A stretch of 64,000 bases of DNA from an uncultured Gammaproteobacteria bacterium (GTDB lineage Bacteria; Patescibacteriota; Patescibacteriia; UBA11705; JABHMO01): assembly GCA_964590105.1 (NCBI GenBank), contig CAZPYM010000002.1, positions 90,697-154,696 on the forward strand, in the 5' to 3' direction. Within the stretch, counting starts at the first letter, position 1; each line of letters opens with the position of its first letter. This document shows, in pieces, positions 39,523-44,523 of this stretch. The position numbers and the translations under genes are program-made. Under the pieces are notes generated by a model, which saw only the letters and a program-made list of their open reading frames with translations, did not search any database and was not told the DNA's origin.

Positions 39523-39630
39523 AATATTATTGATAATTGATAAGATTAGTTAATGATAACATGCTTTTTTGGGTAAATCAAGAAGAAATTGTTTTTATTT
39601 TATCAAATCTGAGAGGTCGTTAATGGTGCT

Positions 39631-39660
39631 TGACAGATTGTTTTCATTATTATAATATAA
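39631..39660 (+). promoter_or_regulatory. Sigma70-like promoter for the GC-rich island operon.
   Basis: TTGACA followed 15-18 nt later by overlapping TATAAT/TAATAT hexamers, about 55 nt upstream of the AAAGGAGG RBS and the ATG at 39715. Confidence 0.4.
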
Positions 39661-39714
39661 TCGGTAAAGTGAATTGCTGGGACATTGACAATTATAGGGC
39701 AAAAGGAGGCAATA

Positions 39715-40719
39715 ATGAACCGAAAATCATTCAAGCCTGGCTATACGCTGGAGAGATTGCAAGAGCTTGAAGTGGCAGTCAGGGCGTGGTACGTCGGACT
39801 TCCAAAGCCGAAAATTCCCAATGCTGTGAGAATTACCGGCATGAGTTCCCGGACTGTTTTTTTGTATTTCCGGGCGGCGGAAAGGGGCAGTGGTCCCCAG
39901 CCATTGGTAATGGAGAGGCTGTTTGAAGCGACCGGAAATCCGGTTTTTCTTTTGAATGAACACGAAAAAGAGGCTTTCCGCGAACGCGGATTTGCCATGC
40001 CGGATGAGGTATTGCTTGGACAGAATGATTTTGCAGAGCCTCCGGCTGTCAAGACCAAAGGTAGGCGGCAAATTTCCATGCCTTTTGCAGAAGACAGGGG
40101 CGCGGCGATGGTCAGAGTGATTGCCGAGTGGTTTGACAGTCTGCCGTCGCCGAAAAGAGACCACGCGCAGAATCTCCTCGGAGTTGACGTCGCCACGGTT
40201 TACCGTTGGATCAAGGGGAAGACATTTCCCAATCTTGATTCTGTGTGCTCTTTGTGGAATACACTAGGAAATCCAGTTTTCCTTTTGCGTGAAAATGAGT
40301 TAAGTATTGCAAAAGCGCTTGGTTATGTGCCGGCGGAGGATTACCCGACACTGGAATCTTTCAGCGGGAAGTCTGTCTCTGACCAGCCGGCGTCCGCGTC
40401 GCTGAAAATTGCTGTCAGGACTGAAGCAGACTCGGTCAACGTGGAAGTAGCTTTTGGCAAAAAGGCGAGCAAGCTCCTGGTTGGCGTGCTGACCAGCGTG
40501 AGCGTGATCAGCGATTTGCTGCAAGAATCTGGTCTTTCCGGCGCGCCGGAGTCGATCAGATACAAGGCGGCAGAAGCAGTGATTAAAATAGTTACAGCTT
40601 TCAATTTGAAAACAGATGATTTTAGAAAAAGAACGCCCGAGGGGGGGGATGATGCGGAAACTCGCAAAAGGATGGAAATTGTTTATGGATTATTTCGACA
40701 ACCAGGAAAGGAGGAATGA
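39715..40719 (+). CDS. Hypothetical protein with two tandem HTH-like repeats (island gene 1).
   Basis: 334 aa. Internal duplication: ITGMSSRTVFLYFRAAERG...RLFEATGNPVFLLNEHEKEAFRERGF aligns with VDVATVYRWIKGKTFPNLDSVCSLWNTLGNPVFLLRENELSIAKALGY. The VATVYRWIKG-type segment resembles MerR/XRE-like HTH helices. GC-rich. Its stop overlaps the ATG of gene 2 (TGAATGA). Confidence 0.5.
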   Translation: MNRKSFKPGYTLERLQELEVAVRAWYVGLPKPKIPNAVRITGMSSRTVFLYFRAAERGSGPQPLVMERLFEATGNPVFLLNEHEKEAFRERGFAMPDEVLLGQNDFAEPPAVKTKGRRQISMPFAEDRGAAMVRVIAEWFDSLPSPKRDHAQNLLGVDVATVYRWIKGKTFPNLDSVCSLWNTLGNPVFLLRENELSIAKALGYVPAEDYPTLESFSGKSVSDQPASASLKIAVRTEADSVNVEVAFGKKASKLLVGVLTSVSVISDLLQESGLSGAPESIRYKAAEAVIKIVTAFNLKTDDFRKRTPEGGDDAETRKRMEIVYGLFRQPGKEE

Positions 40720-42372: not shown

Positions 42373-44397
42373 TTATTTTTGGGCGAATAATCGCCTGATT
42401 GTTTCTTGTTGTTCCGGCGTAAAAACCTGGTCAAGCCAGCTGATCTCTGCGTCGGGCGACACGCCGTATAAAACCTTGCCGCCAAGCGAGCCGCAAAAGC
42501 GCAAAAAAGTTTGGCTTTTATTGAGTTCTAGGCAGGCTTTAAAAATTTGTTTATAAGCGTTTTTATAATCAATCATTGGGTCAAAGCAATTTGCGTTTCG
42601 CATAACGCTGGCAATTTTGAAAAGTGTTCTCACCTTTCCGCCAAGGCAAAACACGGCAATGATTTGTTTTTGAAGTTGAGTTAATTCATTCGTGCGTTGG
42701 CATTCGACTTCAGTCGTTACGTCATTGCGGAGCCTTATAATCCTTGTCTTCGTGTCGTTTTTAGCCAAAACTGGCAAGGGAGCTGAATCTACCGGACTTG
42801 TTTTTGCGCTGTTTTCAGCAGGAGTTACCGCCGGTGAAACTGCCGGTGTGGGTTCTGTTTCCGGTTTTGGCGGTTTCGTTGTCGCGCAAAGAGATCTTAA
42901 CCGTTCGTGAAGTTCAGTCGGAATGATTGCTCCTGTGTCCCCGGTCGCAGCGGTACTTTGCATGTAGAGCGCATACTTTTTGCTCATGCGGCCGCAGAAA
43001 GTCAATGGCGGCTGGTCACGGCGGGAAATTTCCCTGGCCGTAGAAATGATGTTGCCGCGTCGTTTTGAATCGCTGCCAAGTAGTCCAAGTTTAAACAGTG
43101 CGTCGGCCACTTTCCAAGATGATTTTCTTGTGCCAATGATTTGATAGGCTGCAATGATCAGTGTTTCGTCTTCTAGTGAACATGGCGTGCCATCGGGAAC
43201 TTCATTTGTGTCTTCTGCGTCTTCGGGCGGAAGTATCGGAGCCTCAGAAGCTTGCCAGCTAAGAAGTTCCTCTTCGTCAAATTCAGGCGGCGCAGAAAGA
43301 ATATCTGTTCCCGCCGAAACTTCTTCAAAATGTTCAACCGGCGGGGCCATTTGACAGACCTTCAAAGCGTTTTGCAAGCGCAAAAGATCTTTGAGCTGAT
43401 CTTCAATAGGCGACCGCAACCGGAGGAGTTTCTGGATATAAGCGTCGATTTCTTCAATTTTTTCATACGCGCGTTCGATCGCGGCAGTGATTAGTTGGCA
43501 ATCTTCTTTGGAAGAAAATTCAAGGCGCGGCTTTAACTCCTGATCAATTATTTCATTTTGGATATAACTTCGATCGTCTTCCACAACGGTTTGCGCGCGG
43601 CGCAAACCGTCAAGGCGTCTTTGCAGGGGCGCGATGAACTGTTGCAAGGACTTAATCTTGATGCTGACATCGCAGCCATGTGTTCTCGTCGGTGTAGTAG
43701 AGATTTCTCCAGCCAGGGTTTCAAGCGCTTCATCCTCAATTTGACGTCTGATTTCCGACAGTAATTCGTCGAGTATCATGGCCAGAGCAAATGATGCGCT
43801 AGTAGCTTCTTTGCGGTCACCCTGGAAAGAGTGTTGTGCCAATAGTCCAAGTTCTTCAATGATTGAAGTAAGTCTTGGGTACTGATGAGATAGCCCGTTT
43901 AGGCTTTCCCGCGCTTCTTCTGAAACCATTGTTCTGATCGATTCCGGAGTCAGCGGTTCTTCTGCCGGCGAATCAACCTTTTCATCGACAGGGTCGATGG
44001 GGGGGGCAAAGTAGTCTAGTCGCTCCTGCGGATCGACGGGCATTTCAGGCACAACCCTTTTTCGGGAAGCTTCAATGATTCTTTCGAACTGTCCTTGGTC
44101 AAAGAAAAACCGGCGGTTAGTGTCATTGGTAATGATTACTCCGCCATACTGGATGAAGTAGTTTATCAGATGCCAGAGAGCTTTCCTATTGGAACAAGAA
44201 AAGCTCTGCAAGTACTTTTGAACCTTGTTCATTGGTTCCAGAATAGAATCCGGAGTTCTGGTCATCAAGCGGGTTTGCGAATCGCAGTTGTCGGCAAATC
44301 GTTTGCTGGTTTGGATCAGCAGTTCATGGTCAGGCGGACGGCGGGGATCTATATCACTCTTCCGCTTTTGCGCCTCCAGTTTTGTTATTTCTGTCAT
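42373..44397 (-). CDS. Large hypothetical protein, predicted helical/coiled-coil, no recognisable catalytic motif (island gene 3).
   Basis: 674 aa. It has its own promoter (reverse-strand TTGACA at 44468-44473 and TAGAAT at 44445-44450, 17-nt spacer) and an AAGGAG RBS. GC-rich. Central heptad-like E/L/R-rich stretches, an acidic Pro-rich linker and a C-terminal Cys-containing region. Confidence 0.5.
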   Translation of the reverse strand: MTEITKLEAQKRKSDIDPRRPPDHELLIQTSKRFADNCDSQTRLMTRTPDSILEPMNKVQKYLQSFSCSNRKALWHLINYFIQYGGVIITNDTNRRFFFDQGQFERIIEASRKRVVPEMPVDPQERLDYFAPPIDPVDEKVDSPAEEPLTPESIRTMVSEEARESLNGLSHQYPRLTSIIEELGLLAQHSFQGDRKEATSASFALAMILDELLSEIRRQIEDEALETLAGEISTTPTRTHGCDVSIKIKSLQQFIAPLQRRLDGLRRAQTVVEDDRSYIQNEIIDQELKPRLEFSSKEDCQLITAAIERAYEKIEEIDAYIQKLLRLRSPIEDQLKDLLRLQNALKVCQMAPPVEHFEEVSAGTDILSAPPEFDEEELLSWQASEAPILPPEDAEDTNEVPDGTPCSLEDETLIIAAYQIIGTRKSSWKVADALFKLGLLGSDSKRRGNIISTAREISRRDQPPLTFCGRMSKKYALYMQSTAATGDTGAIIPTELHERLRSLCATTKPPKPETEPTPAVSPAVTPAENSAKTSPVDSAPLPVLAKNDTKTRIIRLRNDVTTEVECQRTNELTQLQKQIIAVFCLGGKVRTLFKIASVMRNANCFDPMIDYKNAYKQIFKACLELNKSQTFLRFCGSLGGKVLYGVSPDAEISWLDQVFTPEQQETIRRLFAQK

Positions 44398-44479
44398 GGG
44401 TCTTTCTCCTTTTTTTTGGTTGTCAATTTACATTCGGACTTTTAATTCTAGCTATTATTTATGATTTTGTCAAGGCAAC

Positions 44480-44506
44480 CAAAAAAGCCCTGCTTTAGCA
44501 GAGCTT
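44480..44506 (-). terminator. Rho-independent terminator of hppA.
   Basis: Minus-strand AGCTCTGC-TAAA-GCAGGGCT followed by TTTTTTGG. Confidence 0.5.
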
Positions 44507-44523
44507 TTTATAAAAAATTTAAT

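What the first reader, a model, noticed from the sequence alone, without database searches (positions are those of the whole stretch)
39600..44520. GC-rich three-gene island (tandem-HTH protein, GHKL ATPase, convergent 674-aa coiled-coil protein) between tig and hppA: candidate undescribed accessory or defence-like system
Seen in the sequence:
- A roughly 4.8 kb block is visibly much GC-richer than the AT-rich housekeeping genes tig and hppA that flank it. All six frames have long open stretches across it, a hallmark of high GC.
- It has its own regulatory signals: a TTGACA/TATAAT-like promoter at 39631, convergent hairpin terminators at 42262 and 42341, and a second promoter (reverse-strand TTGACA-17-TAGAAT) for gene 3 at 44445-44473.
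- Gene 1 (39715-40719) is an internal tandem duplication of an HTH-like module, each copy followed by a GNPVFLL motif.
- Gene 2 (40720-42249) is translationally coupled to gene 1 (TGAATGA). It carries the two diagnostic Bergerat-fold motifs in the correct order and spacing: E-x-x-x-N-x-x-D-A (EGIKNGWDAG) and D-N-G-x-G-M (ILDNGEGMT). A roughly 350-aa tail has no known motif.
- Gene 3 (42373-44397, opposite strand) is a large helical protein with no catalytic signature.

Established knowledge: GHKL ATPases of the MORC/paraMORC, MutL and Hsp90-like kind recur in prokaryotic conflict systems, including restriction-like and abortive-infection modules. They are usually partnered with DNA-binding and effector proteins.

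Inference: a horizontally acquired GHKL-ATPase module with a DNA-binding partner and a large companion protein, inserted between two core genes of a tiny genome. That is the profile of a defence or selfish-element cargo locus. I do not recognise this gene combination.
Basis: partly seen in the sequence, partly recalled or inferred. Interest (0 to 1): 0.8.

Follow-up and report, generated by a model that had tools for sequence, protein, structure and literature searches.

The report
Ancestral Patescibacteria GHKL-ATPase three-gene cassette
The three genes are real and centre on an Hsp90/MORC-like ATPase of an undescribed family, but they are not a recently acquired island: the cassette is inherited vertically at this site in related ultra-small (Patescibacteria) bacteria, and its coiled-coil partner gene diverges much faster than the surrounding genes.

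Summary
The three ORFs, their promoters, terminators, translational coupling and GHKL motifs are all present as described. The GC contrast is real but modest: 0.48-0.52 against a window mean of 0.41 (z 1.1-1.8), and hppA is not AT-rich (0.47).

The horizontal-acquisition reading fails. Six further genomes carry the whole tig-g1-g2-g3-hppA block, and three partial contigs agree with it. Their tig proteins are only 57-64% identical to one another. The gene trees are largely congruent and the GC excess recurs. More distant Patescibacteria (named Doudna-, Uhr- and Magasanikbacteria) keep the cassette at other housekeeping sites, often with a fourth gene. No relative was found on phage, plasmid or viral contigs.

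The new result is that g3 and the C-terminal part of g2 are hypervariable. Between two genomes with 96-99% identical housekeeping proteins, g3 is 59% identical with saturated dS, which indicates allele replacement.

Best reading: a lineage-restricted, undescribed ATP-driven clamp module with an HTH targeting subunit and a variable partner, probably conflict-related. The function is inferred, not shown.

The parts
39630..39658 (+). Sigma-70-like promoter of the g1-g2 operon (TTGACA-17-TAATAT)
   Evidence: 10 of 12 matches; sequence. A consensus match only; function not shown.
39715..40719 (+). g1: 334-aa DNA-binding-type protein. It has two tandem HTH modules (about aa 1-100 and 106-210, each ending in GNPVFLL) and a C-terminal helical domain (about aa 248-325).
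   Evidence: Duplication z 13.4. HTH hits at aa 150-250: Pfam HTH_17 E 1e-3 and PHROG repressor 1.2e-5. Orthologues carry one module (L004, L008, L015, L017) or two (L007, L009). The C-terminal domain aligns weakly with g1 of distant cassettes (hhalign prob 50.6%, E 1.6e-4).
40720..42249 (+). g2: 509-aa GHKL plus S5 ATPase of a new Hsp90/MORC-like family. Approximate domains: GHKL aa 1-200; S5/middle domain aa 205-360; disordered Pro/Gly/charged linker aa 373-410; alpha/beta C-terminal domain aa 413-509.
42261..42288 (+). Intrinsic-terminator-like hairpin ending g1-g2 (11 pairs, 8 GC, T-run)
42340..42365 (.). Second hairpin (AAAACGCTCC...GGAGCGTTTT) with A/T runs on both sides. It is placed to terminate the convergent g3.
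   Evidence: Its role for the - strand is inferred from position.
42373..44397 (-). g3: 674-aa helical protein. It has a conserved N-terminal region (about aa 60-130), long central helices (about aa 198-350, coiled-coil-like) and two C-terminal modules (about aa 405-510 and 565-674). It is the fastest-diverging gene of the cassette.
   Evidence: No Pfam or PDB sequence match beyond coiled-coil noise. Homologous to g3 of distant cassettes (hhalign prob 97.4%, E 1.5e-11). C-terminal module duplication z 4.5, shared with L007 only. 26-30% identity among the four genomes compared, where tig is 57-64%. Hypervariable between close genomes. The single-sequence AF2 model is unusable for fold (pLDDT 41.6).
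44445..44473 (-). Sigma-70-like promoter of g3 (TTGACA-17-TAGAAT)
   Evidence: 11 of 12 matches, best in the region; sequence.

Best explanation
This is the local copy of a cassette that, in every named source found, belongs to Patescibacteria (CPR). It is vertically inherited, not a recent island.

It encodes three proteins:
- g1, an HTH protein.
- g2, translationally coupled to g1. It is an ATP-competent GHKL plus S5 ATPase of a previously undescribed Hsp90/MORC-like family, with its own C-terminal domain.
- g3, a convergently transcribed helical/coiled-coil protein.

Proposed mechanism (inferred):
- g2 dimerises on ATP binding, like other GHKL-S5 ATPases, to form a clamp.
- g1 brings the clamp to DNA through its HTH modules.
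- g3 binds the linker and C-terminal part of g2 and acts as a variable specificity or sensor subunit.

The module most likely acts in a genetic conflict, such as recognising or silencing foreign DNA, or exclusion. A standard housekeeping role is less likely, because g3 and the g2 tail are replaced or diversified between close relatives while the rest is conserved under purifying selection.

Shown: the fold and catalytic residues of g2, the synteny, vertical inheritance, hypervariability and purifying selection.
Inferred: complex formation, DNA targeting and the conflict role.
For: Fold and catalytic residues of g2:
- E37, N41, G87 and G118 are conserved in 69/69, D83 in 68/69, and the S5 basic residue R302 in 68/69.

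Family and cassette:
- The family has 155 clusters of about 500 aa. All named members are Patescibacteria, Magasanik-, Doudna- or Uhrbacteria.
- The g1(+)-g2(+)-g3(-) layout recurs in every long locus examined except L030. In L027 the layout is rearranged.
- g3 homology across clades: prob 97.4%.

Vertical inheritance:
- The same tig/hppA site is used in genomes whose tig proteins are 57-64% identical.
- The gene trees are largely congruent.

Selection and hypervariability:
- dN/dS of the cassette genes is 0.09-0.135, so they are coding and constrained.
- L011 versus L025: housekeeping proteins 96-99% identical with dS 0.2-0.6. g3 is 59% identical with dS 2.8. Nucleotide identity falls to 45-70% across all of g3 and the last roughly 500 nt of g2, while the g3/g4 promoter region is 98% identical.
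- L016 versus L017 shows a milder version in the g3 N-terminal third.

Coupling: the g1 stop abuts the g2 start, which suggests co-translation.
Against: - No effector domain (nuclease, TIR, protease, pore-former) is recognisable in any of g1-g4. There is no PADLOC hit.
- Deep, stable synteny among housekeeping genes is unusual for defence systems, which usually turn over.
- No physical interaction was tested. No structure of g1 or g3 could be obtained.
- The distribution was sampled only through g2-positive genomes, so whether the cassette is core or patchy in the lineage is unknown.
- The hypervariability rests on two genome pairs.
Confidence: 0.45

Rival explanations
1. One reading: a recently horizontally acquired defence or selfish-element cargo island inserted between tig and hppA.
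For: - GC is above the window mean.
- The block has its own promoters and terminators.
- GHKL-S5 ATPases recur in restriction-like systems (PMC2292703).
- The cassette genes evolve faster than their flanks.
Against: - The same block sits at the same site in related, deeply diverged genomes, with largely congruent trees.
- The GC excess is shared by the related genomes examined and rises with host GC.
- There is no integrase, tRNA or flanking repeat at the borders.
- There are no relatives on viral contigs, phages or plasmids.
- No helicase, nuclease or methylase partner was found.
Confidence: 0.07
2. A lineage-specific housekeeping chromatin or chromosome-organisation (or transcription-control) module. 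A MORC/SMCHD1-like clamp compacts or bridges DNA, g1 acts as the DNA-binding adaptor and g3 as a coiled-coil scaffold.
For: - Deep vertical retention next to core genes.
- Purifying selection.
- Structural similarity to MORC2/3 and SMCHD1.
- HTH partner.
- No effector domain.
Against: - Allele replacement and hypervariability of g3 and the g2 tail between near-identical genomes is not expected of a structural housekeeping factor.
- Gene content varies: g4 is present or absent, g3 is absent next to g2 in L030, and the layout is rearranged in L027.
- The cassette genes diverge about twice as fast as tig.
Confidence: 0.27
3. A very divergent Hsp90-type chaperone (N-terminal, middle and C-terminal domains) with two lineage-specific co-chaperones, functionally linked to the adjacent trigger factor.
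For: - The best sequence-level matches of the family profile are Hsp90-family N-terminal domains: TRAP1 5e-7, HtpG 4e-6. The match includes the N-terminal strand/helix segment with Y29, conserved in 68/69.
- The cassette abuts tig in the window clade and lies about 0.4 kb from it in L011/L025.
Against: - No member hits Pfam HSP90 (0 of 69 at E < 0.01).
- The NCBIfam HSP90 model scores 11 bits against a cut-off of 455.
- The partner g1 is an HTH protein.
- Many cassettes are not near tig (L013, L024, L026, L028-L030).
- Hypervariability of g3 is not expected of a co-chaperone.
Confidence: 0.1

Closest known systems
Prokaryotic MORC / paraMORC GHKL+S5 ATPases of restriction-like systems (Iyer, Abhiman and Aravind 2008, PMC2292703)
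   Same: - N-terminal GHKL domain with intact ATP motifs.
- S5 domain that supplies a conserved basic residue (R302).
- A family-specific C-terminal extension.
   Different: - It lacks the MORC S5 motif GhXhhpXXRhl (1 of 69).
- It has no helicase, endonuclease or methylase neighbours.
- It is not sporadically distributed or laterally mobile in the clade tested. It is vertical there and was found only in sources named as Patescibacteria.
Hsp90 family (HtpG, TRAP1, Grp94)
   Same: - Best profile-to-sequence matches are to Hsp90 N-terminal domains (E 5e-7).
- Three-part layout: ATPase domain, S5-type middle domain and a small alpha/beta C-terminal domain.
- A conserved arginine in the middle domain.
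   Different: - About 110 residues shorter than HtpG (624 aa).
- The middle and C-terminal domains have no sequence match to Hsp90.
- The disordered linker lies before the C-terminal domain.
- It is encoded in an operon with an HTH protein.
SMCHD1 and eukaryotic MORC chromatin clamps
   Different: No SMC hinge, CW or other chromatin-reader domain. The coiled coil lies on another polypeptide. The context is bacterial.
GHKL-containing anti-phage proteins, for example Shedu type I-D VcSduA (GHKL + DUF4263 nuclease, PMC12137116), and the PADLOC defence-system models
   Same: A GHKL ATPase used as a regulatory or clamp module in a conflict-type gene set.
   Different: No nuclease domain and no PADLOC match. 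NCBIfam gives only a weak sub-threshold hit to a BbrUII/HgiDII restriction enzyme (17 bits against a 550-bit cut-off).

Membership tests
GHKL (Bergerat-fold) ATPase superfamily | Motif I (E-x-x-x-N) and motif II (D-x-G-x-G) in order, with a conserved glycine in motif III | tested here: met
   E37, N41, G87 and G118 in 69/69; D83 in 68/69; G85 in 67/69. 37 of 69 members hit Pfam HATPase_c_3, best E 4.9e-10. The window protein itself is sub-threshold (E 0.049).
GHKL (Bergerat-fold) ATPase superfamily | Bergerat fold in three dimensions | tested here: met
GHKL+S5 subgroup (MORC, Hsp90, MutL, type II topoisomerase ATPase modules) | S5-fold transducer domain after the GHKL domain, contributing a conserved basic residue | tested here: met
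MORC family sensu Iyer et al. 2008 | S5-domain motif GhXhhpXXRhl | tested here: not met
   A regular-expression scan of 69 family members finds 1 match, consistent with chance. The motif definition comes from PMC2292703.
paraMORC / MORC restriction-modification systems | Conserved neighbourhood with superfamily II helicase, endonuclease and/or DNA methylase, and a sporadic, laterally mobile distribution | tested here: not met
   No such Pfam domains occur in the genes of the cassette in the loci examined. Synteny and congruent trees hold in the window clade.
Hsp90 / HtpG family | Hsp90 middle and C-terminal domains (Pfam PF00183) and the curated NCBIfam HSP90 model | tested here: not met
   0 of 69 members hit PF00183 at E < 0.01. 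NCBIfam PRK14083 scores 11.4 bits against a 455-bit cut-off. Only the N-terminal domain matches (E 5e-7). The C-terminal-domain profile finds no PDB hit.
MutL | DNA_mis_repair (S5) domain signature and MutL C-terminal dimerisation/endonuclease domain | tested here: not met
Described anti-phage defence systems (PADLOC-DB v2) | Match of any component to a system model | tested here: not met
   g2 has no hit. g1 and g3 have only chance-level hits (E 0.027 and 0.12).
Recently acquired genomic island | Absent from related genomes at the same site; bounded by an integrase, tRNA or direct repeats; composition foreign to the host | tested here: not met
   The block is present at the same site in related genomes. 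No bounding elements were found. The GC excess is modest (z 1.1-1.8) and shared by the orthologous cassettes.

The most novel reading that the evidence does not exclude
The cassette is a previously unrecognised kind of immune or foreign-DNA-silencing system found only in the ultra-small Patescibacteria. An Hsp90/MORC-like ATP clamp is targeted by an HTH subunit. Its specificity is set by a coiled-coil subunit whose alleles, together with the matching tail of the ATPase, are exchanged by recombination within populations. The system is retained vertically for very long periods instead of cycling through defence islands.
Probability: 0.25. Interest if true: 0.75.

Novelty: new variant of a known kind. 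Interest (0 to 1): 0.55.

Why it matters
Patescibacteria have tiny genomes, of which a large share is unannotated, and little is known about how they handle foreign DNA.

A 4.8-kb cassette kept at one site through deep divergence in genomes of about 0.6-0.8 Mb is a substantial investment, so it probably does something important.

It also defines a new family in the Hsp90/MORC/SMCHD1 branch of GHKL ATPases. About 155 clusters at 50% identity have no family-specific annotation. The family comes with two or three partner proteins that have no known domains.

The pattern of a conserved engine plus a recombining hypervariable partner gives a concrete, testable handle on function. If the cassette is conflict-related, it would be an example of a stably inherited rather than island-borne system.

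Tried and rejected
- The search for homologous proteins with the 69-sequence alignment returned only the same 7 close proteins. With g3 it returned only the protein itself. So no alignment acceptable to the structure predictor could be built for g3.
- The single-sequence AF2 model of g3 was unusable (pLDDT 41.6), so no fold search was run on it.
- The GTDB genome scan with the close-clade alignment found nothing. A 7-sequence subset gave 7 loci.
- The metagenome scan gave only 6 loci.
- Viral contigs, phage records and plasmid records gave no relatives of g2.
- The afdb50 fold library was unavailable.
- The idea that g1 and g3 were co-duplicated, as evidence of interaction, is weakened. L009 has a two-module g1 but a one-module g3. 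The g1 modules are not more alike within a genome than between genomes.
- Literature searches for a described equivalent found none.
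Full report
**1. Observation**

The region holds three long ORFs between trigger factor and the H+-pyrophosphatase:
- g1: 39715-40719, + strand, 334 aa.
- g2: 40720-42249, + strand, 509 aa.
- g3: 42373-44397, - strand, 674 aa.
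- tig: 38215-39522, - strand; Pfam E 1e-32.
- hppA: 44524-46545, - strand; Pfam E 5e-279.

- A promoter-like site lies at 39630-39658, with an AAGGAGG ribosome-binding site before the g1 ATG.
- The best promoter-like site of the region lies on the - strand at 44473-44445.
- Two hairpins at 42261-42288 and 42340-42365 lie between the convergent genes.
- The junction reads GGAGGAATGAATGA, so the g1 stop abuts the g2 start.
- The internal duplication of g1 is significant: z 13.4 against shuffles, with GNPVFLL present twice.

The compositional claim is only partly right.
- The three genes have GC 0.50, 0.52 and 0.48. The 53 other ORFs of the window average 0.41 (sd 0.059). That gives z 1.6, 1.8 and 1.1.
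- hppA is itself 0.47 GC.
- Nothing marks island borders. There is no tRNA, integrase or flanking repeat.

**2. What gene 2 is**

The window protein alone barely touches Pfam HATPase_c_3 (E 0.049). A profile search of 1.84 billion representatives found 155 clusters, almost all about 500 aa and matched end to end.

In a 69-member alignment:
- E37, N41, G87, G118 and D259 are invariant.
- Y29, D83, F181, P208, G287 and R302 are conserved in 68/69.
- 37 of 69 members hit HATPase_c_3, best E 4.9e-10.

An AlphaFold2 model built on 7 sequences has pLDDT 75.7.
- Foldseek ranks TRAP1, SMCHD1 and MORC3 equally, near 1e-10.
- At sequence level the family profile is closest to Hsp90-family N-terminal domains: TRAP1 5e-7, HtpG 4e-6.

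g2 fails the defining features of the named families.
- The MORC S5 motif GhXhhpXXRhl, as defined in PMC2292703, is found in 1 of 69 members.
- Pfam HSP90 is hit by 0 of 69.
- The NCBIfam HSP90 model scores 11 bits against a cut-off of 455.
- There is no MutL signature.
- There is no PADLOC match.

So g2 is an ATP-competent GHKL+S5 ATPase of a new family in the Hsp90/MORC branch.

**3. The block is ancestral, not an insertion**

Look-ups of g2 relatives and a metagenome scan recovered the same order, tig-g1-g2-g3-hppA-L32, in L004, L007, L008, L015 and L017. L016 shows g2-g3-hppA. Partial contigs L020 and L009 show tig next to g1-g2.

These genomes are deeply diverged. Among the four compared:
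- tig is 57-64% identical, L32 62-77% and hppA 80-87%.
- g2 is 37-44% identical, g1 27-38% and g3 26-30%.

Neighbour-joining trees of g2 and g3 recover the groupings seen in the tig and hppA trees: window with L015, and L017 with L008 (in g3 also with L004). Only L004 in the g2 tree and L007 shift. That is what vertical co-inheritance predicts.

The GC excess is a property of the cassette in the related genomes examined. For example, g2 GC3 is 0.54-0.65 where tig is 0.26-0.31 and hppA 0.23-0.29 in L004, L007 and L008. In GC-richer hosts the cassette is higher again (L011, L013).

**4. Wider distribution**

Named sources of family members are Patescibacteria group, Candidatus Magasanikbacteria, Doudnabacteria and Uhrbacteria. 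Some MAGs are labelled only 'bacterium' or carry an implausible 'Gammaproteobacteria' label.

In these more distant genomes (g2 about 30% identical to the window's) the layout g1(+)-g2(+, overlapping start)-g3(-) persists. It is usually followed by a fourth gene, g4 (+, 459-557 aa), which is absent from the window and its clade.

- g3 is demonstrably homologous across the clades (hhalign 97.4%, E 1.5e-11). Iterated HMM searches agree.
- g1 is only weakly related, through its C-terminal helical domain (50.6%).

The positions differ but are always among housekeeping genes.
- L011 and L025: just upstream of a directly adjacent tig-hppA pair.
- L013: between the tuf/S10 operon and fusA/S7/S12.
- L026: a few kilobases from ATP synthase genes.
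- L027: the order is rearranged.
- L030: no convergent g3 follows g2.

No relative was found on viral contigs, phage genomes or plasmids.

**5. Selection and hypervariability**

L011 and L025 are close relatives. Their housekeeping proteins are 96-99% identical, with dS 0.2-0.6. All four cassette genes show purifying selection (dN/dS 0.09-0.135), against 0.02-0.09 for the annotated housekeeping flanks.

g3, however, is only 59% identical, with dS saturated at 2.8. A sliding window shows nucleotide identity falling to 45-70% across the whole g3 coding sequence and the last roughly 500 nt of g2 (its linker and C-terminal domain). g1, the rest of g2 and g4 stay mostly at 85-97%, and the g3/g4 promoter region is 98% identical.

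High dS with low dN/dS points to replacement by a diverged allele rather than fast point substitution.

A second pair, L016 and L017, shows a milder dip: 54-77% against 85-90% background, in the N-terminal third of g3 and around the g2 linker.

The co-variation of g3 with the g2 tail suggests that the two interact. That is an inference.

**6. Genes 1 and 3**

g1 has one or two HTH modules, depending on the genome, plus a conserved C-terminal helical domain. The HTH assignment rests on weak but consistent hits: Pfam HTH_17 E 1e-3, and a PHROG repressor E 1.2e-5.

g3 matches nothing beyond coiled-coil noise. The window and L007 versions carry an extra C-terminal module (z 4.5). No usable structure could be made for g3 (pLDDT 41.6), because only window sequences or search-returned proteins may be submitted.

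**7. Interpretation**

The most economical reading is a lineage-restricted ATP-driven clamp module. g2 dimerises on ATP like its structural relatives. g1, co-translated with it, provides DNA targeting. g3 is a variable partner of the g2 tail.

Features that resemble conflict systems: the conserved engine paired with a recombining, hypervariable partner, the faster evolution than the flanks, and the persistent compositional offset.

Features that argue for a lineage-specific chromatin or regulatory role: the absence of any recognisable effector, and the very stable, vertical, non-mobile inheritance.

A divergent Hsp90-type chaperone is a third possibility. It is suggested by the N-terminal-domain similarity and the frequent adjacency to tig. 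It is contradicted by the HTH partner and by the lack of Hsp90 middle and C-terminal signatures.

I give the conflict-type clamp 0.45, the housekeeping chromatin role 0.27, the chaperone 0.10 and the recent-island reading 0.07.

**8. Novelty**

No PADLOC, Pfam, NCBIfam or PHROG entry matches the combination, and none of the papers searched describes it. GHKL+S5 ATPases with partner proteins are a known kind. This is a new family with new partners and an atypical mode of inheritance, so I rate it a new variant of a known kind.

**Limits**
- The distribution was sampled only through g2-positive contigs.
- The hypervariability rests on two genome pairs.
- All functional statements beyond fold, conservation and synteny are inferences.

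Noticed in passing
window 461-2907 (+): An NfeD-like ORF (461-1174) and a flotillin/SPFH gene (1207-2907; Pfam Band_7 E 1e-30, Flot 2.8e-8) have GC 0.50 and 0.63, and GC3 0.55 and 0.81. This is by far the strongest compositional outlier in the window and a better candidate for recent horizontal transfer than the flagged block. It lies just upstream of probable dnaA/dnaN (4773-7585, judged by eye from the translations).
   Followed up: partly
L015 8001-9492: The g2 orthologue in this metagenome contig matches in two reading frames that overlap at 8383-8402, and the longest ORF is only 394 aa. This is a frameshift, so either a pseudogene or an assembly error.
   Followed up: no
L013 8800-15031 (GCA_018063105.1, JAGOQX010000006.1): In this Patescibacteria genome the four-gene cassette, together with an adjacent ADP-ribosylglycohydrolase gene (15169-16125), sits between the tuf/S10 ribosomal-protein operon and fusA-rpsG-rpsL. 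It therefore splits the otherwise highly conserved str/S10 neighbourhood.
   Followed up: no
L011 13339-14739; L013 13358-15031; L024 11922-13544; L026 12403-13782; L027 6223-7842: A fourth conserved gene (g4, 459-557 aa, no Pfam match) accompanies the cassette in the distant clades. It is absent from the window and its clade (jackhmmer).
   Followed up: partly
window 44524-46545 (-): The mechanical hppA ORF starts at a TTG (LYHMNIP...). Gene calls on the identical contigs give 670 aa, so the real start is probably the ATG three codons downstream.
   Followed up: no
window 35530-35922 (+) and 36875-37240 (+): Two further small GC-rich ORFs: a 130-aa protein with no Pfam match (GC 0.54, GC3 0.61), and a stand-alone response-regulator receiver (GC 0.48, GC3 0.54). 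GC-rich genes are scattered through this AT-rich genome, not confined to the flagged block.
   Followed up: no
L022, L023, L025, L026 (GTDB representative genomes): These MAGs are titled 'uncultured Gammaproteobacteria bacterium'. They carry the Patescibacteria-type cassette, and L025 matches the gene order of L011 (housekeeping proteins 96-99% identical). L026 comes from a 633-kb contig. The taxonomic labels look wrong.
   Followed up: no
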